From Nanobdellota archaeon (GTDB lineage: Archaea; Nanobdellota; Nanobdellia; Pacearchaeales; GW2011-AR1), in assembly GCA_030688225.1 (NCBI GenBank), contig JAUYIO010000021.1:12080-76079 (forward strand): a stretch of 64,000 nt of DNA, read 5' to 3'. The position numbers and the translations under genes are program-made. Of this stretch, positions 16,835-51,383 are shown piece after piece. The notes under the pieces are model-generated. The model searched no databases, had not been told where the DNA came from, and saw nothing but the letters and a program-made list of their open reading frames with translations. The first letter of the stretch is position 1; each line of letters begins with the position of its first letter.

Positions 16835-18553
16835 TTATTTTCCAATCTCTTTCAATTTTTTTAAAACCTCGTCAAGTTCTTCTTTTCTTTTTGGTTGAGC
16901 CTGAGGTTTTCTTGCAGGAGATCTTTGTTGAGGAGTTGGCAAAATTCTTCTTCTAATAATTCCTCTTGGTATTTGCGAATGTTGGGGTGAAGAAGGGAAT
17001 TCGCTTGGAGGAGCTTTCTTGAACTTAGAACTTAATCTGAACCAGAATTCTTTAAATTTATTCCTGAAAATTATTCCTAATGTTGTTAAGACAATTAAAA
17101 TTAACAAAACCCAGATGTACCAATAACTCGATCCTCCCTGTGGAACACAACAGAAATCAGTGGAATAGTCACATTGGAAGTTTTTTATTTCTTCATTATC
17201 TCCGCATGAAATCTTACAAGCCCCTCCATTTATTGCGCATTCTGTTTTTGGTTGCTCTGAAGGAGTTGTGCATGAACCAAGACAACAATTAGGAGTGTCA
17301 TCTGCAGAAACAATTTTTCCGTTACATACTTCATTTGATGTGCAAATGTCTCCATTTTGTGCAGAACATGTTGGAAGAACTAAAGGAACACTACAACATT
17401 TCAAAGTTCCTGTACAAGTCCCGGTTATAATATTTCCTTCACAATCTGCAGAAGGAAGACAATAACCTCCAGACGATAAACAATCTGTTCCGTTCAAAGG
17501 TTTTAATGGCCAAACAGAATATAAAATAAATCCTGTATTTCTTATATTATCCCAACAACCATCTGTTTTTTGATTATCAATTAGCCAGTTCATTGCATTT
17601 GTTTTTGCTTCAGAAGTTTCTGGTTGCAGAGGATATAATGCTAAAGCAGTATCATATAATTTGTCTCCTGAAGAATCCCAGTATTTATTTTCTCTCTGAA
17701 GAGAAAGCAAATCTTCATAATAAGTATTTCCTGCCAACAAATACAAAAATGACTCAGGAAGGTATCTTTCATTTTTATTTGCAGAAATTATTAAGTATGG
17801 GATGTATGAAGAAGCATCAGTATTTGCTTGAGTCAGAGATAATGCTCCCCATAAAGTTCCTTCGTAATCGCAGGAATCTGTTGTTGAGAAACAATTTGAT
17901 TTTACTTTTTCAGTTATAGAAGATGATGCAGAACCAGAATTTATCTTGTCAGAAATGAAATAAGTTGGGGAATTGATGTCCTTAAAAATCATGTTCGTCT
18001 TGAATGATTTATCACAAGAAATTTTAAACTCTTTATCATAACATGTTGAGGGAACTCTCAGCCAATAATCGTCTTTATCCAAACGCAAGCATTCTCCTGC
18101 AGAAGAATCTATTTTTTTATCTTCTCCAAGATTTACTGAATAAGAAGAAGAGTCGTAAGAGATTGTGCAAGAAGTTGCTTCATTGCTGTCAATTTGCAAA
18201 TACCATAAAACATCTGTAGAAATTTTTGTCTGGGACAATAGCCATGATTGTGCTTTTTCTGTTGAAGTTCCAACACTATTTAGAGCCAATATTGACTGAG
18301 CTGTTTGTTTTATCGTGCATCCTGATTTGGGCCAGCATTCTGCATTATTTTGTGAGTCTGTTAAAAGTTCTCCCTCACATTTTTGAACTCCTAGCAAAGA
18401 AAAAATTTTTTCCTCTGTTGTCAAACTTGAACAAGTATTTTTTGCTACCTGATTTTCAAGACATTGGACAGCCTTTTCAACTTCTGCCTGCTGTGAAGAA
18501 ACTATAGGGAAAATTAGCAAAATTAAAACTAAAAATATTATTCCTCTTCTCAT
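16835..18553 (-). CDS. large surface protein with alpha/alpha-toroid (prenyltransferase/terpene-cyclase-like) repeats, three 6-Cys modules, TM and basic cytoplasmic tail
   Basis: Signal peptide; repeats of the QxxDGxW kind (DNQKTDGCWDN, LWGALSL, ALALYPL); three tandem C-x5-7-C...CC...C modules before TM WYIWVLLILIVLTTLGIIF. Confidence 0.45.
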   Translation of the reverse strand: MRRGIIFLVLILLIFPIVSSQQAEVEKAVQCLENQVAKNTCSSLTTEEKIFSLLGVQKCEGELLTDSQNNAECWPKSGCTIKQTAQSILALNSVGTSTEKAQSWLLSQTKISTDVLWYLQIDSNEATSCTISYDSSSYSVNLGEDKKIDSSAGECLRLDKDDYWLRVPSTCYDKEFKISCDKSFKTNMIFKDINSPTYFISDKINSGSASSSITEKVKSNCFSTTDSCDYEGTLWGALSLTQANTDASSYIPYLIISANKNERYLPESFLYLLAGNTYYEDLLSLQRENKYWDSSGDKLYDTALALYPLQPETSEAKTNAMNWLIDNQKTDGCWDNIRNTGFILYSVWPLKPLNGTDCLSSGGYCLPSADCEGNIITGTCTGTLKCCSVPLVLPTCSAQNGDICTSNEVCNGKIVSADDTPNCCLGSCTTPSEQPKTECAINGGACKISCGDNEEIKNFQCDYSTDFCCVPQGGSSYWYIWVLLILIVLTTLGIIFRNKFKEFWFRLSSKFKKAPPSEFPSSPQHSQIPRGIIRRRILPTPQQRSPARKPQAQPKRKEELDEVLKKLKEIGK

Positions 18554-18589: not shown

Positions 18590-19900
18590 TTATTTTTTCC
18601 CTTTTTTATTCGCAAGAAGATTTTTTCTTATAACATAGTTTGAGGGATTTTTAATTAATTTGCAGAATTCGTCTGGAAAACAAACCCCTATTCCTTGATA
18701 AAATTCTTTACAGTTAGGAGGAAGAACTGGTTTTTTTCTGTAAGCCCATGAAAGCTGAGAAGTTATGTAACCTTGTTTAAGAGGTGGTTTGTTTTTTTTG
18801 TTCCATTCTTCAATTATTTTTTCAAGTTCAACTTTGTCCATTCCAACAGAGCGAAACAAATTTATCAAAACGAATAATGCTCTTTTTCTTCCGTCGGCAA
18901 TTCCTTTTAAAATTAATTTAATGCAAGGAGGGTAATTTTCTTCTGTCAGATTTTTCAATTCAATTGGTTTAAAAGTTGCAAATTTTCCCTCTATTTTTTC
19001 TTTTCCAGGGGTGTTTTCTTTGTACCAATCCAATGCCTGAGTTAAAAGCTCTTTTGCTTCTCCTTCTTCTGAATCAGGAAGGAAATTTTTTATCTTGACT
19101 TTCATAGGGTCTGCATCCTTTGGTTGGAAACTTGAAATTTTATTTGCGTCAATAACAGCACTTGCTAAAGATGTTTTTTCGTGAAGAGAATAAGGCATTC
19201 TGAACAAATGTCTTGGAGAAACTAATATTATATCTGGCATGACTTCTTTTGGAGCCTGAAAATCTTTTACATATTTATTTGGTTTAGAAAGTTCTGAAAT
19301 TTTTTTTATTAATTTTTCTTTTGTTTTTTCTATTATGTATTTTGTAATTATTCTAGGGTATTCTGGGAACATATCTGAGGTTCTCACCTGATTTATCTGC
19401 TTCGGAAAAGACTTCCAAGGAATTATTATGTGAAACCCCTTGCTTCCTGAGAATTTTATTCCTATGTTTTTTATCCCATGGAATTTCAGAAAATCAATTA
19501 TTATCTCTGCAGAGATTTTACTATAATCAATATATTTACTATCAATATCAATTAACAAATCCCATCCTTCACGAAGTTCGTTTAATTTATTTTCATTCAT
19601 CCCTGTTTGTATGTTCAAAGGATCAGTCCAAAGTTCTTCAGAGCAATGAAAAGATGTTGCCCCTTTTTTTGTTAATTCAAAAATGTCCCCCTGATATTGC
19701 AGAATGTCAGGGCGCTTTCCAAATCCTTCAAAATATCTTGGAACAACTTCACGAGATTTAGAAAAATCAAATATTGCCTTTTGAATGTCTTTTCTTGAAT
19801 AATATAATTGGGTGAGATTTCTGATTCTCTTTTCTTTAAAGGAAGACTCTTCCATAAAATAGAATAATGGAGAAGCTTTAAATAAATACCCCCTTTTCAT
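18590..19900 (-). CDS. DNA primase, fused small catalytic subunit (PriS) plus PriL C-terminal Fe-S domain
   Basis: AEP motifs LLIDIDS (DxD), FSGSKGFHIII (SGxRGxH), RMPYSLHEKT; C-terminal YPPCIKLILKGIADGRKRALFVL (PriL PPCM motif) and 4 Cys (PPC, NCKEF, GVCF, EFCK). Confidence 0.7.
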   Translation of the reverse strand: MKRGYLFKASPLFYFMEESSFKEKRIRNLTQLYYSRKDIQKAIFDFSKSREVVPRYFEGFGKRPDILQYQGDIFELTKKGATSFHCSEELWTDPLNIQTGMNENKLNELREGWDLLIDIDSKYIDYSKISAEIIIDFLKFHGIKNIGIKFSGSKGFHIIIPWKSFPKQINQVRTSDMFPEYPRIITKYIIEKTKEKLIKKISELSKPNKYVKDFQAPKEVMPDIILVSPRHLFRMPYSLHEKTSLASAVIDANKISSFQPKDADPMKVKIKNFLPDSEEGEAKELLTQALDWYKENTPGKEKIEGKFATFKPIELKNLTEENYPPCIKLILKGIADGRKRALFVLINLFRSVGMDKVELEKIIEEWNKKNKPPLKQGYITSQLSWAYRKKPVLPPNCKEFYQGIGVCFPDEFCKLIKNPSNYVIRKNLLANKKGKK

Positions 19901-19939
19901 AACAATAATGCTTAAAAAATAGGCAGGACTTTTTAAAAG

Positions 19940-20665
19940 ATGTTACTTAAATTGGAAAACCCGAGCCTGCTTTCAAGAGTTATAGAAATTGTTTCTGAAC
20001 TTGTCACAGAAGTTAGAATAAAGGTAAATGAGACTGGGATGAGTATTGTTGCGATGGATCCTGCAAATGTTTCAATGGTTGGATTCAAACTTCCGAAGAG
20101 TTCTTTCTCACAATTTGAATCAGACAAAGAAGTTCTTGGAATTAATCTTGACAGTTTAAAAAGAATTTTAAAAAGATGCGGAAACAGTAGCTCTCTTATC
20201 TTGGAAAGAAAAGAAAATTTATTATCAATTCAAATTCTTGACAGAATAACAAGGAATTTTAAATTAAGCCTTATAGATATAGAAAGCGAAGACAAAGAAA
20301 TGCCAAGCCTTGAATTCAGTTCTAAGATTGAAATAAATTCAATAGATTTGATTGATTCAATTGAAGATTGTGCAGTTGTTTCTGACGCATGTTCATTTAT
20401 TGTAAGAGATGGAAAATTTATTATTGAGGCGAAAGGACTTAATGCTGCGAGTTCTGAATTTAGCGGAGATGAGGTCAAGATTATTGCTGAAAATTGCAAA
20501 TCAAAATACAGTCTTGAATATCTGCAAAAGTTTATCAAAGGCGCAAAATTATGCGACAAAACAATTCTGAATTTTGCAAATGACCATCCTTTGAAGATGG
20601 AGTTGAAAACAGAAAACATGGAATTGGATTTTATTCTTGCTCCAAGGGTTGAAACCGAAGATTGA
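19940..20665 (+). CDS. pcn: PCNA sliding clamp
   Basis: N-terminus LENPSLLSRVIEIVSELVTEVRIKVNETGMSIVAMDPANVSMVGFKL matches PCNA; 241 aa. Confidence 0.8.
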   Translation: MLLKLENPSLLSRVIEIVSELVTEVRIKVNETGMSIVAMDPANVSMVGFKLPKSSFSQFESDKEVLGINLDSLKRILKRCGNSSSLILERKENLLSIQILDRITRNFKLSLIDIESEDKEMPSLEFSSKIEINSIDLIDSIEDCAVVSDACSFIVRDGKFIIEAKGLNAASSEFSGDEVKIIAENCKSKYSLEYLQKFIKGAKLCDKTILNFANDHPLKMELKTENMELDFILAPRVETED

Positions 20666-20720: not shown

Positions 20721-21497
20721 ATGCAAATAAAAGAGGATAAGAATGGGCAAGTTACAATTTTTATTATTGTTGCAGTCGTGATTATTGCGATAGGTGTTGC
20801 GGCATATTTTGTTTATCCGAAAGTCAAAACTACTGAAACTTTTGATTCAAAAAATCCTTCTGCATTTATTCAAAGTTGCTTGGAAAGTGAATTGAGGAAT
20901 AATGTTGAATTAATTTCTTCTCAAGGAGGGAGTTTAAATCCAGGAAATTATATTTTATATGATAATTCAAAAGTTGAATATTTATGTTATACAAATCAAG
21001 ATTATCAAACCTGCGTCATGCAACAGCCTTTATTAAAAGAACATATTGAATCTGAAATTAAGAACAGTATAGAAGTTTCTGCAAAAGATTGCTTCACATC
21101 TTTAGTGAATAGTTATGAAAAAATTGGGGAGAATGTTAATTTGGAAGAAGGAAATACTGATGTTGAGCTGATTCCTAAAAAAATTATCGTGACTTTCAAC
21201 AAAGTTTTAACCTTGACCGATGGAAACTCAGAAAGATATGAAAACTTTAAGATTAATCTTGATAATAATCTTTATGAATTGGTGAGTATTACAGATAGCA
21301 TCTTGGAATGGGAGGCACGTTATGGCGACGCTGATTCAAGTGGTTATATGGATTATTATCATTGGCTAAAAGTTGAAAAAGAAAAAAGAGATGATGGAAG
21401 CAAAATTTATATCTTAACAGATAAAGATAAAGGAAATAAATTTCAATTTGCTTCCAGAAGTATTGTGTGGCCTTCTGGGTATGGAGAGGTTATATAA
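20721..21497 (+). CDS. class III (prepilin-type) signal peptide protein
   Basis: KNG-QVTIFIIVAVVIIAIGVAAYF: basic residue, Gly, then Q at +1 and a hydrophobic stretch. Confidence 0.4.
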   Translation: MQIKEDKNGQVTIFIIVAVVIIAIGVAAYFVYPKVKTTETFDSKNPSAFIQSCLESELRNNVELISSQGGSLNPGNYILYDNSKVEYLCYTNQDYQTCVMQQPLLKEHIESEIKNSIEVSAKDCFTSLVNSYEKIGENVNLEEGNTDVELIPKKIIVTFNKVLTLTDGNSERYENFKINLDNNLYELVSITDSILEWEARYGDADSSGYMDYYHWLKVEKEKRDDGSKIYILTDKDKGNKFQFASRSIVWPSGYGEVI

Positions 21498-21500
21498 AAA

Positions 21501-23021
21501 ATGGGTAAAAAAATTTTAATTCTGGCAATTGGAATGTTTTTAATATTTAGCAGTTTTGTTTTTTTAATTCAAAATGTTTCTGCTGCAAGTTTATATTGCT
21601 GTGAAAAAACTTTAAGTGGTGCGTGGTGTCAAAACGCTCCAAAAGATCAGTGCGATACTGACAACGGGCTTAATGTTGCTGCGACTTCATGCGATGCAAC
21701 TTCTTTTTGTAAACTTGGAACATGCATAGATAATCAAGGGGCATGTAAGATAAATACTGCTCAAACAACATGCAGGCAAAATGGAGGCTACTGGGCAGAA
21801 GGAAAACCAGAAAATATCCCTCAATGTCAGAAAGGATGTTGTCTTGTAGAAGGACAAGGGCCTTCTTTCATTGAACAAGCAAGATGCACGAGTTATTCTT
21901 CTCTGTATGGCGCTCAAATAGAATTTAGAGGAGATATTAAAAATTCAGAGTTGTGCTCTGCAAGTGCGACGTCAAACGTAAAAGGAGCATGTGTGTTGGA
22001 AGAAGAACTTGGTAAAAGAAATTGTAAATTCTTGACACAGAGAGAATGTGTAAATGCAAAAGGGAGTTTTAATGAAAATGTTTTATGTACTGCAACATGG
22101 TTAAATACTTCTTGTGTAAAGACAAAAGAAACAACTTGCTTTGATGAGAAAGTTTATTTTAAAGATAATTGTGGAAATTTAGCAAATATTTATGATGCTT
22201 CAAAATACGACGACCAAGATTATTGGAACATTGTAATTGCTCCTGAAAATAGTTGTGGTTTTGACGATTTAAGTGGAAATGCAAATTCTCCAAGCTGCGG
22301 AAATTGTGATTATCATTCTGGAAGTGCCTGTAAAATGGCTGTAAGGGGGCAAGACGCAACTCCTACAATTGGGAACAATATTTGTAGAGATTTATCTTGC
22401 AAGTACGAAGGAGAAACTTATCAGCAAGGAGAAAAATGGTGTGTAACAAATACCGAGAACTCTAATCTTCAGAATAATCCTGGTGGCGAGAGTTGGGTTT
22501 TAGAGTGTAGGGATGGGGAAGTTCTTCCAGAATTGTGTGGTGATGGGCCAGGAGCCAGAGACAAAATATGCGTTCAGGAAGAATTATCAAACGGATTCAA
22601 AAGTGCAAACTGTGTTGCAAATAATTGGCAGGAATGCGTTTTTCAAGACAATGAAGAAGATTGTTTGATTGAAGAGTTAGATTGTAAATGGATTAAAGAT
22701 TATAGTTTTGGAGAGTATAATCCAAACAATGAAGGAGTTTGCGTTCCAAGATATTCTCCAGGATTTACTTTTTGGAACCCCGAAGAAAAAACTAGAGATA
22801 TTTGTTCTCAGGGAACTGTTACATGTTCTGTAACTTATGAAAAAGGATTAGGTGGAAAATGGGAAGCTAAAACAAATGCAGAATGTGATCCTTCTAATCA
22901 GAATTATCAAAGTTGGCTAAATAAAATGGAAGGCGTTTGTGTGGCTCTCGGAGATTGTGGAAGCAGTGTCAACTATAGAGGACAAAAAGGTTTCAACGAA
23001 TTAAAAGCGACAAAAGTATAA
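21501..23021 (+). CDS. secreted cysteine-rich protein
   Basis: Sec-type signal peptide ending VSA-A; more than 50 Cys in repeated C-x-C / CC patterns. Confidence 0.4.
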   Translation: MGKKILILAIGMFLIFSSFVFLIQNVSAASLYCCEKTLSGAWCQNAPKDQCDTDNGLNVAATSCDATSFCKLGTCIDNQGACKINTAQTTCRQNGGYWAEGKPENIPQCQKGCCLVEGQGPSFIEQARCTSYSSLYGAQIEFRGDIKNSELCSASATSNVKGACVLEEELGKRNCKFLTQRECVNAKGSFNENVLCTATWLNTSCVKTKETTCFDEKVYFKDNCGNLANIYDASKYDDQDYWNIVIAPENSCGFDDLSGNANSPSCGNCDYHSGSACKMAVRGQDATPTIGNNICRDLSCKYEGETYQQGEKWCVTNTENSNLQNNPGGESWVLECRDGEVLPELCGDGPGARDKICVQEELSNGFKSANCVANNWQECVFQDNEEDCLIEELDCKWIKDYSFGEYNPNNEGVCVPRYSPGFTFWNPEEKTRDICSQGTVTCSVTYEKGLGGKWEAKTNAECDPSNQNYQSWLNKMEGVCVALGDCGSSVNYRGQKGFNELKATKV

Positions 23022-23022
23022 A

Positions 23023-25065
23023 ATGAATACATCAGGAAAAATTGCGTTTTTTGAGATTTTTATTTTATTAATTGGGATTGTGGGGATTTCTTGGAGTATT
23101 GGAAGTGAGATAAAGGTTGTTAAGGGGGAGGATTTTTTTGTTTTTAATCAATTCACAGGAAAAGTAGAAAATCTTGGTTCTTCTTCTAATCCTATCCCTG
23201 CTACAGCTAAATCTCCTTTTTCACTTTGGGGGAAGATTAAAGATTTATTTGGATTTGGCGGGGAAGAGACAGCTAAAGCTGTAACTGGAAAGATGGCTTC
23301 TGTTTGGAAATCTGCAGAAACTATTGGAAGAAATGCAGGGATTGCTTATGGGGTTTATTATGGTTTAAAATTAGGGCTTGATGCTTTCGGAGTTGGAGAA
23401 GGAACTGCTGAAGCAACTGCAATAGCTGGAAGAAATGCTTATTTTATTGGCAAAACAACTTATGATTTGTTATCAACAGGAACAGGAAAAGCTTTGTTAT
23501 CAAAAATTGGATTACATGTTAGTGCAGGAACTGTTGCACTCCCTGTTAGCATAATTGTTTTTTACATTTCATACAAAGAAAAGAAAACAGCTACAATTAC
23601 TTTTGAATGTAAACCGTGGCAAGCAGCGACAGGAGGAAATAAATGTGAAGAATGTAATGAACAACTCCTTGGATGCAACGAATATCAGTGTAAGAGTTTA
23701 GGTAGATCATGCGAATTAATCAATAAAGGAACTGACAGAGAAATGTGTGCTGATTCAAATAAAAATGATGTAAGTCCCCCAGTGATAGAAATTTCTGAAG
23801 GTTATCTATTAGAAGATTATGAATATACTTCTCCTACTTCAACAGGAGTTAAAATTGAATATACTAAATCCAGCGACGGGTGCATTCCTTTCTTCAGACC
23901 ATTTAGTTTTGGATTTACCACAGATGAGCCTGCATATTGTAAAATAGATTATCAAAGAAAAGAAAATTTTGAAGAGATGGGATATGATTTTGGGGGAACA
24001 AATAATCTAGAGTATAATCACACACATACTTTGGGTTTGCCCGGAAAAGTTTCTTATGAAGCAGAAAACATTACTCTCCCTGATGGATTTGGGAATTATA
24101 ATCTGTATGTAAGATGCCAAGATGCAAAACCAAATACGAATTCTGCAGATTTTGTTTTCAAATTCTGCATTGATAATGGTCCTGATATCTACAAGCCAGA
24201 GATTAAGGGAACAAGTATACAAGATGGGATGCCTGTCGGTTTCGGTGTACAAAAAACATCATTAAATCTATATACAAATGAACCTGCGAGTTGCAAATGG
24301 AGTACAAGAGATCAAGCATATGAAAATATGGAGCATGAGATGGAATGTCCTACTAGTATTAGTGAAATCAACACACAAATGACCTATACTTGCGAAACAG
24401 AATTGGTTGATTTAAAAGACAAGGAAGACAGCGTGTTTTATTTCAGATGCCAAGATATTTCTCCTGCAAAAAATACAATGGAAATTTCCCATAGATTAAC
24501 ATTAAAAGGAAGTCAGCCGCTTGTAATTGATTCTGTCGGACCAGAAGGGACAATTAAAGATTCAACAGAATTTGTGAGAGTTAGTTTAACTGCAAAAACA
24601 TCTGCAGGATTTAATGAAGGTAATTCAAAATGTTCTTACAGCGAAGATGGTGAAAAATATGTTGAATTTTTTGAAACAGGTTCTCACACACATTCCCAGG
24701 ATTTGGTTTTGACAAAAGGAATTTACAAATACTTTATACAATGTACTGATTTAGCAGGAAATTCTGAAACAAAAACAATCGCATTTGAAGTTGAATCTGA
24801 TCCTTATGCTCCAAGCATTGTGAGAGTTTACAAAGACGGAAGCAATTTGAAATTGATAACTGATGAAGAAGCAGAATGTGTTTATACTACTTTTGGTTGC
24901 AGTTATTCTTTTGCAGATGGAACAACCATAACAACTAGCGACGGTAAAAATCACTTTACTTCATGGAATCCTAAAGCAAATTTCTATATTAAATGTAAAG
25001 ACACTTATGGAAATGAACCTTTCCCAAATGAATGCAGCATAACTGTCAAACCATTGAAGATTTAA
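23023..25065 (+). CDS. large membrane-anchored surface protein with repeated Cys-containing beta-domain modules
   Basis: N-terminal TM, second TM near residue 180, then repeated YxxRCxD / FxCxD...GN modules; 680 aa. Confidence 0.4.
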   Translation: MNTSGKIAFFEIFILLIGIVGISWSIGSEIKVVKGEDFFVFNQFTGKVENLGSSSNPIPATAKSPFSLWGKIKDLFGFGGEETAKAVTGKMASVWKSAETIGRNAGIAYGVYYGLKLGLDAFGVGEGTAEATAIAGRNAYFIGKTTYDLLSTGTGKALLSKIGLHVSAGTVALPVSIIVFYISYKEKKTATITFECKPWQAATGGNKCEECNEQLLGCNEYQCKSLGRSCELINKGTDREMCADSNKNDVSPPVIEISEGYLLEDYEYTSPTSTGVKIEYTKSSDGCIPFFRPFSFGFTTDEPAYCKIDYQRKENFEEMGYDFGGTNNLEYNHTHTLGLPGKVSYEAENITLPDGFGNYNLYVRCQDAKPNTNSADFVFKFCIDNGPDIYKPEIKGTSIQDGMPVGFGVQKTSLNLYTNEPASCKWSTRDQAYENMEHEMECPTSISEINTQMTYTCETELVDLKDKEDSVFYFRCQDISPAKNTMEISHRLTLKGSQPLVIDSVGPEGTIKDSTEFVRVSLTAKTSAGFNEGNSKCSYSEDGEKYVEFFETGSHTHSQDLVLTKGIYKYFIQCTDLAGNSETKTIAFEVESDPYAPSIVRVYKDGSNLKLITDEEAECVYTTFGCSYSFADGTTITTSDGKNHFTSWNPKANFYIKCKDTYGNEPFPNECSITVKPLKI

Positions 25066-38164: not shown

Positions 38165-38237
38165 TGGGGCTGCCCGGATTTGAACCGGGGTCGTCAGGTC
38201 CCAAACCTGAAAGGCTACCAGGCTACCCCACAGCCCC
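38165..38237 (-). tRNA. tRNA-Pro (anticodon UGG)
   Basis: Minus-strand cloverleaf: acceptor GGGGCTG/CAGCCCC, anticodon stem TCAGG/CCTGA loop TTTGGGA, T arm CCCGG-TTCAAAT-CCGGG, discriminator A. Confidence 0.8.
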
Positions 38238-51236: not shown

Positions 51237-51262
51237 AACTATTTGATTAATTCTAATGATAT

Positions 51263-51342
51263 GCCTCCGGCGCATAACGGTCGTGCACCGGTCTTGAAAA
51301 CCGGGCCCTTTGGGCTACCAGGTTCGACTCCTGGCGGGGGCG
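51263..51342 (+). tRNA. tRNA-Ser (anticodon UGA)
   Basis: Acceptor GCCTCCG/CGGGGGC, 3-bp D stem, anticodon stem CCGGT/ACCGG loop CTTGAAA, variable arm GCCC-TTT-GGGC, T arm CCAGG-TTCGACT-CCTGG. Confidence 0.8.
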
Positions 51343-51383
51343 TTTTTAGAAATATTTAAAAAGAGATTTATTTCTAGAAAGTC

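What the first reader, a model, noticed from the sequence alone, without database searches (positions are those of the whole stretch)
18590..19900. Single-polypeptide primase: PriS catalytic core fused to the PriL C-terminal Fe-S domain
All three AEP catalytic motifs plus the PriL PPCx motif and four C-terminal Cys are in one 436-aa protein. A comparable fusion is known from Nanoarchaeum. It is divergently paired with PCNA across a 39-bp spacer.
Basis: partly seen in the sequence, partly recalled or inferred. Interest (0 to 1): 0.6.

Follow-up and report, generated by a model that had tools for sequence, protein, structure and literature searches.

The report
Known DPANN single-chain PriS–PriL primase

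Summary
It has an N-terminal AEP/PriS catalytic core: DxD at D103/D105, sxH at H142, and the third acidic residue D208. It has a C-terminal PriL-type domain with four cysteines: C311, C382, C392 and C398. Two details need correcting. The true start is almost certainly the second ATG (19855). That makes the protein 421 aa rather than 436, and the spacer to the divergent PCNA gene 84 bp rather than 39.

The evidence for the later start is consistent. All homologues and the GenBank call begin there. A conserved TATA-like box also lies inside the supposed 15-codon extension.

The protein aligns end to end with the biochemically characterised NEQ395 of Nanoarchaeum equitans (E = 1e-74, 38% identity). 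Every residue mutated in that study is conserved here. At least 454 species-level genomes labelled Pacearchaeota, Woesearchaeota or Nanoarchaeota carry a full-length orthologue. In 73 of the best 80 loci it is divergently paired with PCNA.

The fusion has been described since 2005. It is published as a synapomorphy of Undinarchaeota plus DPANN Cluster 2. I could not test whether a separate priL exists elsewhere in this genome; none is present in the 64-kb window.

The parts
18590..19855 (-). Most likely CDS of the monomeric PriS-PriL primase (421 aa plus stop). It is identical to GenBank MAG protein Q8P15_01165, which is annotated 'hypothetical protein'.
19856..19900 (-). It is probably not translated, because it contains the conserved promoter element.
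   Evidence: only 5 of 52 related loci have any in-frame upstream ATG
19070..19855 (-). PriS-type AEP catalytic core (residues 1-262). It contains a single Cys (C71), so it has no Zn-knuckle.
   Evidence: Pfam PF01896, 5.8e-9; Foldseek hits to Pri1 and PriS; pLDDT mostly 85-95; Cys count
19541..19558 (-). AEP motif I, LLIDID (D103 and D105, metal ligands). Aligns with NEQ395 D87/D89.
   Evidence: NEQ395 D87A+D89A is inactive (PMC10250227)
19430..19450 (-). AEP motif II, SGSKGFH (H142). Aligns with NEQ395 H125.
   Evidence: NEQ395 H125A is inactive
19181..19240 (-). AEP motif III region, MPD (D208) followed by RMPYSLH (219-225).
19013..19054 (-). Predicted linker helix (residues 268-281) between the two domains. 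A low-confidence stretch (285-301) follows it.
   Evidence: the same layout is described for the NEQ395 model (PMC10250227)
18593..18952 (-). PriL C-terminal (Fe-S) domain equivalent (residues 302-421). No PriL N-terminal domain is present.
   Evidence: NCBIfam PriL models match only at model positions from about 180 to 341; PDB PriL 9f26_B at 1.1e-8; Pfam PF04104 below cut-off here (17.6 against 22.4) but above it in relatives
18923..18931 (-). PPC motif. C311 is the inferred first [4Fe-4S] ligand and aligns with NEQ395 C289.
18662..18721 (-). PPNC-x9-C-x5-C. C382, C392 and C398 are the inferred second to fourth [4Fe-4S] ligands and align with NEQ395 C364/C376/C384.
19877..19888 (-). Conserved TATA-like box of the primase promoter (TATTTATTTAAA), 22-33 nt upstream of the M16 ATG.
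   Evidence: column conservation 83-96% over 52 loci; promoter function is inferred
19907..19919 (+). Conserved TATA-like box of the PCNA promoter (AATGCTTAAAAAA), 21-33 nt upstream of the PCNA ATG.
   Evidence: TTAAAA core in 45 of 52 loci; promoter function is inferred
19940..20665 (+). PCNA sliding clamp, the divergently transcribed partner gene.
   Evidence: Pfam PCNA_N and PCNA_C, TIGR00590 at 3e-32; divergent PCNA found in 73 of 80 related loci

Best explanation
This is the chromosomal replicative primase of a DPANN archaeon of the Pacearchaeota/Woesearchaeota/'Nanoarchaeota' group. It is a single 421-aa polypeptide of the NEQ395 type.

Shown here: the N-terminal PriS-type AEP domain carries the catalytic residues D103, D105, D208 and H142. 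A helix and a flexible linker tether it to a PriL-CTD-type helical domain carrying four cysteines (C311, C382, C392, C398).

Inferred from NEQ395 biochemistry and general AEP primase mechanism:
- The PriL-like domain binds a [4Fe-4S] cluster. It helps hold the template and the initiating nucleotide so that the first dinucleotide can form.
- The PriS domain then extends a short RNA primer, which is about 9 nt in NEQ395.
- Covalent tethering replaces the PriL N-terminal domain, which normally docks PriL onto PriS. That explains why this domain is missing.

The gene is transcribed from its own TATA box in an 84-bp divergent promoter region shared with PCNA. That arrangement probably allows co-regulation of two replisome components.
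For: Domain content:
- Pfam PriS scores above its cut-off, with a PriL hit on residues 276-398 of the 436-aa ORF.
- NCBIfam PriL models match only their C-terminal halves.
- P. abyssi PriL is the only significant PDB hit for the C-terminal profile.
- Foldseek matches the N-terminal half to Pri1/PriS and other AEP folds.

Orthology to the characterised enzyme:
- BLASTP against NEQ395 gives E = 1e-74 over residues 18-407 versus 6-393.
- The alignment maps D87/D89, H125, C289/364/376/384 and F306 of NEQ395 onto identical residues here.
- NEQ395 is a monomeric, [4Fe-4S]-containing, rNTP-using primase. It is the only AEP in its genome (PMC10250227).

Conservation and spread:
- 5030 proteins hit at E <= 1e-3 in the first homologue search, and the 120 listed are 69-100% identical.
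- 782 clusters at 50% identity were found, 314 of them at E <= 1e-30.
- At least 454 GTDB species genomes carry a relative, and all 80 loci listed are archaeal, most labelled Pacearchaeota, Woesearchaeota or Nanoarchaeota.
- All catalytic and Cys positions are invariant or nearly invariant.

Chromosomal, housekeeping context:
- Divergent PCNA occurs in 73 of 80 loci.
- The window also holds a class I LysRS, tRNA genes and an S-layer protein.
- No phage record matches.
- Relatives carry inteins, which is typical of essential replication proteins.
- No other PriS-like or PriL-like ORF lies in the window.

Literature: Raymann 2014 (PMC3914693), Dombrowski 2020 (PMC7414124) and a 2026 preprint describe exactly this fusion as a synapomorphy of this part of DPANN.
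Against: - No experiment exists on this protein. Fe-S binding and primase activity are inferred from NEQ395, which is only 38% identical.
- The fold-level test of the C-terminal domain was inconclusive. The AF2 models have low confidence over the Cys-rich tail. Foldseek found nothing at E <= 0.001. The only thematically relevant hit was S. solfataricus PriX at E = 4.
- Pfam PF04104 is below its gathering score for this particular sequence.
- Only 64 kb of the genome was available, so a second primase gene elsewhere is not excluded by my own data.
- In NEQ395 the Cys-to-Ala mutants remain active in vitro, so the role of the cluster is unresolved even in the model enzyme.
Confidence: 0.9

Rival explanations
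1. It is a primase-polymerase of an integrated plasmid or virus, like PolpTN2 of Thermococcus nautilus or the pRN1 replicase. It would serve the element rather than the chromosome.
For: PriS-PriL-like fusions are known on archaeal plasmids (PMC3973330; Raymann 2014). The 2026 preprint argues that the DPANN monomeric primase may ultimately derive from a mobile element in the ancestor of the clade.
Against: - The same PCNA-primase-downstream-gene synteny is found in 70-73 of 80 species-level genomes.
- The flanks hold housekeeping genes.
- No match exists in 50,697 phage records.
- The protein is a full-length homologue of NEQ395, the sole primase of N. equitans.
- Raymann 2014 reports no sequence similarity between PolpTN2 and the nanosized-archaea primases.
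- An ancient mobile-element origin would not change the present-day role.
Confidence: 0.03
2. It is mainly a DNA-repair AEP, a PrimPol or LigD-polymerase-like enzyme for gap filling or end joining, rather than the replicative primase.
For: Foldseek E-values for Mycobacterium Prim-PolC and LigD polymerase domains are comparable to those for Pri1. There is a weak Pfam LigD_Prim-Pol hit (E = 0.045). Archaeal replicative primase can also act in double-strand-break repair (PMC12019639, abstract).
Against: - All AEPs share the catalytic fold, so fold hits do not discriminate between these roles.
- LigD and PrimPol enzymes lack a PriL-CTD with four Cys, and this protein has one.
- NEQ395 uses rNTPs and not dNTPs, and it primes de novo.
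- The gene is paired with PCNA, a linkage typical of priS and priL in archaea (PMC2643942).
- A secondary repair role is not excluded.
Confidence: 0.04
3. The protein is a PriS whose C-terminal extension only resembles PriL by chance or is a decayed remnant. A separate functional PriL encoded elsewhere in the genome would do the regulatory job.
For: Pfam PF04104 is below threshold for this sequence. The C-terminal fold search is inconclusive. Only 64 kb of the genome could be inspected.
Against: - The C-terminal domain is as strongly conserved as the catalytic core, with all four Cys, F328, R325, W351 and the KNP motif invariant.
- Four independent NCBIfam PriL models and the P. abyssi PriL sequence match it, with the Cys residues in register.
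- Relatives pass the Pfam PriL cut-off.
- Deletion of, or point mutations in, this domain abolish initiation in NEQ395.
- Dombrowski 2020 found only the fused form in all DPANN Cluster 2 genomes.
Confidence: 0.03

Closest known systems
NEQ395, the monomeric primase of Nanoarchaeum equitans (AAR39242.1; NAR 2023, PMC10250227)
   Same: - It has the same single-chain architecture: PriS catalytic core, linker helix, then PriL-CTD with four Cys.
- The alignment is collinear end to end (E = 1e-74, 38% identity).
- All experimentally probed residues are conserved: the DxD pair, the motif II His, the four Cys and F306.
- It has no PriL N-terminal domain.
   Different: - This protein is 28 aa longer.
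- The Cys spacing differs: C2-C3-C4 is 10 and 6 residues here, against 12 and 8 in NEQ395. Spacings of 12/6, 10/6 and 11/6 dominate the wider family.
- This protein has a lysine-rich C-terminal tail.
- It comes from a mesophile-like, 32% GC organism rather than a hyperthermophile.
- No biochemistry exists for this clade.
Fused PriS-PriL primases of DPANN Cluster 2 plus Undinarchaeota ('Nanostetteria') as defined by Raymann 2014 and Dombrowski 2020
   Same: The window protein is 63-80% identical to hundreds of orthologues labelled Pacearchaeota, Woesearchaeota or Nanoarchaeota. It falls in the same family as the Nanobdella, Nanoclepta and Aenigmarchaeota proteins.
   Different: Nothing of substance. 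It is an ordinary member of the family. GenBank labels it only 'hypothetical protein'.
Canonical heterodimeric archaeal/eukaryotic primase (PriS plus PriL, for example P. abyssi 9f26 or human PRIM1/PRIM2)
   Same: It has the same catalytic fold and motifs. The Fe-S domain shows the same sequence signatures, PPC and PPNC..C..C. Linkage of the primase gene with PCNA is also common in other archaea (PMC2643942).
   Different: - It is one gene instead of two.
- It lacks the PriL N-terminal (PriS-docking) domain, because the NCBIfam PriL models match only from about position 180 onward.
- It lacks a Zn-knuckle in PriS, with only one Cys in residues 1-310.
- There is no room for a PriS C-terminal domain (inference from length).
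PolpTN2 (Thermococcus nautilus plasmid pTN2) and other mobile-element PriS-helix-bundle fusions (pRN1, RepB')
   Same: The concept is the same: an AEP catalytic domain covalently joined to a PriL-like or helix-bundle initiation domain.
   Different: The literature reports an independent origin, with no sequence similarity (Raymann 2014). Those enzymes replicate extrachromosomal elements. This gene sits in conserved chromosomal synteny. I did not test this comparison by direct alignment.

Membership tests
NEQ395-type monomeric PriS-PriL primase of DPANN Cluster 2/Undinarchaeota | Full-length, collinear sequence homology to NEQ395 | tested here: met
   BLASTP E = 1e-74, 38% identity, residues 18-407 against 6-393; multiple alignment A3
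NEQ395-type monomeric PriS-PriL primase of DPANN Cluster 2/Undinarchaeota | AEP catalytic motifs I (hhhDhD), II (sxH) and III (hD/E) in the N-terminal domain | tested here: met
   LLIDID at 100-105, SGSKGFH at 136-142 and MPD at 206-208. These are invariant or nearly invariant in A1 and A3
NEQ395-type monomeric PriS-PriL primase of DPANN Cluster 2/Undinarchaeota | C-terminal PriL-CTD with four conserved Cys in the same polypeptide | tested here: met
   C311/C382/C392/C398 align with NEQ395 C289/C364/C376/C384 and with the Cys of P. abyssi PriL
NEQ395-type monomeric PriS-PriL primase of DPANN Cluster 2/Undinarchaeota | Absence of the PriL N-terminal domain (compact protein of about 390-460 aa) | tested here: met
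   The protein is 421 aa. PriL models match only at model positions from about 180 to 341. Pfam PF04104 is matched at profile positions 61-189 of 266
NEQ395-type monomeric PriS-PriL primase of DPANN Cluster 2/Undinarchaeota | Host belongs to DPANN Cluster 2 or Undinarchaeota | tested here: met
   The identical protein is in a GenBank 'Nanoarchaeota archaeon' MAG. The closest genomes are labelled Pacearchaeota, Woesearchaeota or Nanoarchaeota
NEQ395-type monomeric PriS-PriL primase of DPANN Cluster 2/Undinarchaeota | It replaces the canonical genes, so the genome has no separate priS or priL | tested here: inconclusive
   No other PriS-like or PriL-CTD-like ORF lies in the 64-kb window (best other E >= 0.5). 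The rest of the genome was not available. The literature reports absence for the clade
NEQ395-type monomeric PriS-PriL primase of DPANN Cluster 2/Undinarchaeota | [4Fe-4S] cluster binding and de novo RNA primer synthesis as a monomer | not testable with these tools
   This needs anaerobic purification, UV-vis spectroscopy and a primase assay. It has been shown only for NEQ395
Pfam PF01896 (DNA_primase_S) | Score at or above the gathering threshold | tested here: met
   37.0 bits against 26.8
Pfam PF04104 (DNA_primase_lrg) | Score at or above the gathering threshold | tested here: inconclusive
   This sequence scores 17.6 bits against 22.4, below the cut-off. Family members score 25-37 bits, above it, and NEQ395 carries a precomputed PF04104 hit
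Canonical heterodimeric archaeal PriS/PriL primase | Two separate subunit genes, with PriL having an N-terminal PriS-binding domain | tested here: not met
   Single ORF and no PriL N-terminal domain
Canonical heterodimeric archaeal PriS/PriL primase | Zn-binding motif (Cys/His knuckle) in PriS after motif I. That this is a defining feature rests on established knowledge of the Pfu, Sso and human structures. | tested here: not met
   Only one Cys (C71) in residues 1-310 and none between motif I and motif II
Plasmid PolpTN2-type PriS-PriL fusion | Sequence relatedness to PolpTN2 and a location on a mobile element | not tested
   I made no direct alignment. Raymann 2014 reports no similarity. The context here is chromosomal

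The most novel reading that the evidence does not exclude
The Pacearchaeota/Woesearchaeota branch of the monomeric primase could work differently from NEQ395. Its Cys spacing around the presumed cluster is tighter (10 and 6 residues against 12 and 8). It also sits in a rigidly conserved 84-85-bp divergent promoter with PCNA, followed by a conserved gene for an unknown secreted, cysteine-rich membrane protein. Possible differences include another template-recognition triplet or primer length, or a physical or regulatory coupling to PCNA or to the downstream surface protein that has not been described. My data do not exclude this, but nothing in them requires it.
Probability: 0.1. Interest if true: 0.35.

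Novelty: already known. Interest (0 to 1): 0.12.

Why it matters
It matters little as a discovery. The fused primase was first noted in 2005, was mapped across DPANN in 2014 and 2020, and was characterised biochemically in 2023.

The practical value is in annotation:
- The GenBank entry for this exact protein reads 'hypothetical protein' and could be renamed as a monomeric DNA primase (PriS-PriL fusion).
- Naive longest-ORF calling over-extends the N-terminus into the promoter.
- The strongly conserved PCNA-primase divergent promoter gives a clean pair of candidate archaeal promoters in an uncultivated lineage.

The gene is also a reliable lineage marker. It places the window in the DPANN Cluster 2/Undinarchaeota clade.

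Tried and rejected
- I folded the C-terminal domain alone to get a fold-level match to PriL-CTD. The model was weak (pLDDT 64, with the Cys-rich tail below 50), and Foldseek gave no significant hit. PriX at rank 4 is only suggestive. The PriL assignment therefore rests on sequence evidence.
- The supplement of the NEQ395 paper is not held as text. I obtained NEQ395 instead by a stepping-stone search from representative P0246, which has the NEQ-like Cys spacing.
- The genome-contig scan returned only close relatives (63-76% identical) and not N. equitans.
- My first regular expressions for TATA boxes were too narrow and gave misleadingly low counts. I replaced them with column-wise conservation.
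- A mobile-element origin was considered and rejected for the present-day gene, on the basis of synteny, housekeeping flanks and the absence of phage hits.
- A PCNA-interacting PIP box was looked for only by eye and not found. I make no claim about it.

Full report
**Observation.** The window contains an ATG-to-stop ORF at 18590..19900 on the minus strand (436 aa). A 241-aa ORF starts at 19940 on the plus strand, and it is an unambiguous PCNA (Pfam PCNA_N at 8.7e-19, PCNA_C, and TIGR00590 at 3e-32). In 436-aa numbering they are DID at 118-120, SGSKGFH at 151-157, D223, RMPYSLH at 234-240, PPC at 324-326, PPNC at 394-397, and Cys 407 and 413. In an alignment of 63 homologues every one of these positions is invariant or nearly invariant. 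The pattern is therefore a conserved feature and not chance.

**Correction of the start codon.** The 436-aa length and the 39-bp spacer come from using the first in-frame ATG.
- The identical protein in GenBank (MAG 'Nanoarchaeota archaeon', Q8P15_01165) is called at 421 aa, starting at the second Met.
- All homologues inspected start at the equivalent position, 'ME..SFKEQRIR'.
- In 52 related loci with a compact PCNA-primase intergenic region, the spacer is 85 bp in 24 loci and 84 bp in 8, and never about 39 bp. With the second ATG (19855) the window's spacer is 84 bp.
- A conserved element, TATTTATTTAAA, lies 22-33 nt upstream of that ATG, with 83-96% column conservation. In the window it is at 19877..19888, inside the supposed extra 15 codons.
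- A second conserved element, AATGCTTAAAAAA (19907..19919, +), sits 21-33 nt upstream of the PCNA ATG. Its TTAAAA core is present in 45 of 52 loci.

By their sequence and position I read these as the two archaeal TATA boxes of a divergent promoter driving leaderless or near-leaderless mRNAs. That reading is an inference. From here on I use 421-aa numbering.

**N-terminal half.** The N-terminal region passes Pfam's gathering score for the primase small subunit (PF01896, 37 bits against 26.8). An AlphaFold2 model built on the 63-sequence alignment has pLDDT mostly 85-95 over residues 10-190 and 220-280. With Foldseek it matches the catalytic subunits of Xenopus, human and yeast primase, P. furiosus and P. 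abyssi PriS, and other AEP-fold enzymes such as Prim-PolC and the LigD polymerase domain, at E = 5.5e-7 to 2.6e-4.

**C-terminal part.**
- It matches NCBIfam PriL models at E = 1.6e-8, 2.7e-6, 5.4e-6 and 1.4e-3, always over the C-terminal half of the model only.
- Against all PDB sequences the full protein, the family profile and the C-terminal profile alone each find P. abyssi PriL (9f26_B), at E = 4.4e-7, 2.6e-7 and 1.1e-8. For both profile searches it is the only significant hit; the single-sequence search also gave weaker matches to designed TPR proteins in the N-terminal region.
- The two aligned segments are exactly the PPC and PPNC...C...C stretches.
- Pfam's PriL model is below its cut-off for this sequence (17.6 bits against 22.4). 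Members of the same family score 25-37 bits, and NEQ395 and many relatives carry precomputed PF04104 hits.

**Missing domains.** There is no PriL N-terminal domain. There is also no Zn-knuckle in the PriS part, because residues 1-310 contain a single Cys.

**Direct comparison with NEQ395.** I reached the N. equitans protein (P0273, 393 aa, named NEQ395 by NCBI and UniRef) through a stepping-stone search. BLASTP of the window protein against it gives E = 1e-74 and 38% identity. It covers residues 18-407 against 6-393, which is end to end.

In the multiple alignment, each NEQ395 residue mutated in the 2023 study aligns with an identical residue here (residue numbers from PMC10250227):

| NEQ395 | This protein |
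|---|---|
| D87 / D89 | D103 / D105 |
| H125 | H142 |
| C289 / C364 / C376 / C384 | C311 / C382 / C392 / C398 |
| F306 | F328 |

The predicted linker helix followed by a floppy segment (residues 268-281 and 285-301) mirrors the published NEQ395 model and its proteolysis-sensitive site. The one visible difference is the spacing of the last three Cys. It is 10 and 6 residues here, against 12 and 8 in NEQ395. Spacings of 12/6, 10/6 and 11/6 dominate the wider family.

**Distribution and context.**
- The first homologue search scored 5030 proteins at E <= 1e-3. The best 120 are 69-100% identical and of similar length.
- An exhaustive search of 50%-identity representatives finds 782 clusters, 314 of them at E <= 1e-30.
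- Among GTDB species genomes at least 454 encode a relative. The best 80 are all archaeal, most labelled Pacearchaeota, Woesearchaeota or Nanoarchaeota.
- PCNA lies divergently upstream in 73 of those 80 loci. A homologue of the window's 572-aa downstream ORF follows on the same strand in 70 (see also L001).
- Linkage of PCNA with priS or priL is an old observation in archaea (Berthon et al. 2008, PMC2643942).
- The window otherwise looks chromosomal. It holds a class I lysyl-tRNA synthetase, three tRNAs, an S-layer protein and an XPD-like helicase.
- Profiles of the two halves find no other PriS-like or PriL-like ORF among 602 stop-to-stop segments of the window (best other E >= 0.5).
- There is no match in 50,697 phage records.

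**Mechanism.**
- Shown: the architecture, the conservation of the catalytic and Cys residues, and homology to NEQ395.
- Taken from NEQ395 biochemistry: the enzyme acts as a monomer and carries a [4Fe-4S] cluster. It needs the PriL-like domain for initiation but not for elongation. It uses rNTPs and prefers Mn2+. It starts opposite the central T of a template triplet and stops at about 9 nt. The cluster itself is dispensable in vitro.
- Inferred for this protein: the same division of labour. The covalent linker substitutes for the missing PriL N-terminal docking domain, and the gene is co-regulated with PCNA through the shared divergent promoter.

**Comparison with what is known.** According to Raymann et al. 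2014, who cite Iyer et al. 2005, the fusion was first noted in N. equitans. Raymann et al. extended it to other nanosized archaea (PMC3914693). Dombrowski et al. [quoted passage not shown] A 2026 preprint reaffirms this and names the clade Nanostetteria. The NEQ395 paper itself states that the fusion is present in numerous other DPANN. The window's gene is therefore an ordinary member of a described family.

**Rivals.** I considered three alternatives: a mobile-element primase-polymerase, a repair-only AEP, and a PriS with a degenerate tail plus a separate PriL. The evidence above makes each unlikely. Only the third is limited by my inability to search the whole genome.

**Verdict.** The novelty rating is 'already known', and interest is low (0.12).

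Noticed in passing
window 18590..19855 (-): The identical GenBank protein (Q8P15_01165, MAG 'Nanoarchaeota archaeon') is annotated only as 'hypothetical protein'. Many orthologues have no name or are called just 'DNA primase catalytic subunit' or 'small subunit domain-containing protein'. The PriL half is generally not recognised by automated annotation, because PF04104 falls below its cut-off.
   Followed up: yes
window 19856..19939; L004-L083: The PCNA-primase divergent intergenic region has a very constrained length: 84-85 bp in 32 of 52 compact loci. It carries two conserved TATA-like boxes at fixed distances from the two ATGs, plus a conserved 'AGTATAGG'-like stretch just upstream of the primase-side box. 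This looks like a tidy bidirectional archaeal promoter.
   Followed up: partly
window 16835..18553 (-): A 572-aa ORF starts 36 nt downstream of the primase stop codon. It has a signal-peptide-like N-terminus, many Cys, a C-terminal TM helix and a basic, Pro-rich tail, and it has no Pfam hit. A homologue follows the primase on the same strand in 70 of 80 related loci, so PCNA<>primase>this gene is a conserved trio. Its function is unknown.
   Followed up: partly
P0121, P0128, P0157 (relatives, 934-1019 aa): Some members of the family carry inteins with LAGLIDADG homing endonuclease domains inserted in the PriS catalytic domain.
   Followed up: partly
P0190 (769 aa), P0138 (640 aa): Two relatives have extra C-terminal domains after the PriL-like domain: an alpha/beta-hydrolase and a class I SAM methyltransferase. 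These could be real fusions or gene-calling read-throughs. I did not resolve which.
   Followed up: no
P0181, P0256 (relatives, 509 and 549 aa): A variable insertion site lies between motif II and motif III (about residue 185-205 here, low pLDDT). In some relatives it holds about 80-100 aa with several CxxC pairs, resembling Zn-ribbons. The window protein has no such insert. Many representatives match in two stretches split at this site.
   Followed up: no
window 20721..25065 (+): Directly after PCNA comes a run of three ORFs of 258, 506 and 680 aa. They have hydrophobic N-termini and the 506-aa ORF is visibly Cys-rich. There are essentially no Pfam hits, only a sub-threshold Big_13 match. They are probably surface proteins of unknown function.
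   Followed up: no
window 51262..51343 (+): ARAGORN calls a tRNA-Ser (tga) here. The Rfam search at gathering threshold listed only the tRNAs at 66-137 and 38165-38237.
   Followed up: no
L003 (JGI Ga0307436_1000001): In this relative a PemK-family toxin gene and a small partner ORF are inserted between the primase and the conserved downstream large ORF. The gene upstream of the primase is a 113-aa ORF rather than PCNA, so the trio is not universal.
   Followed up: no
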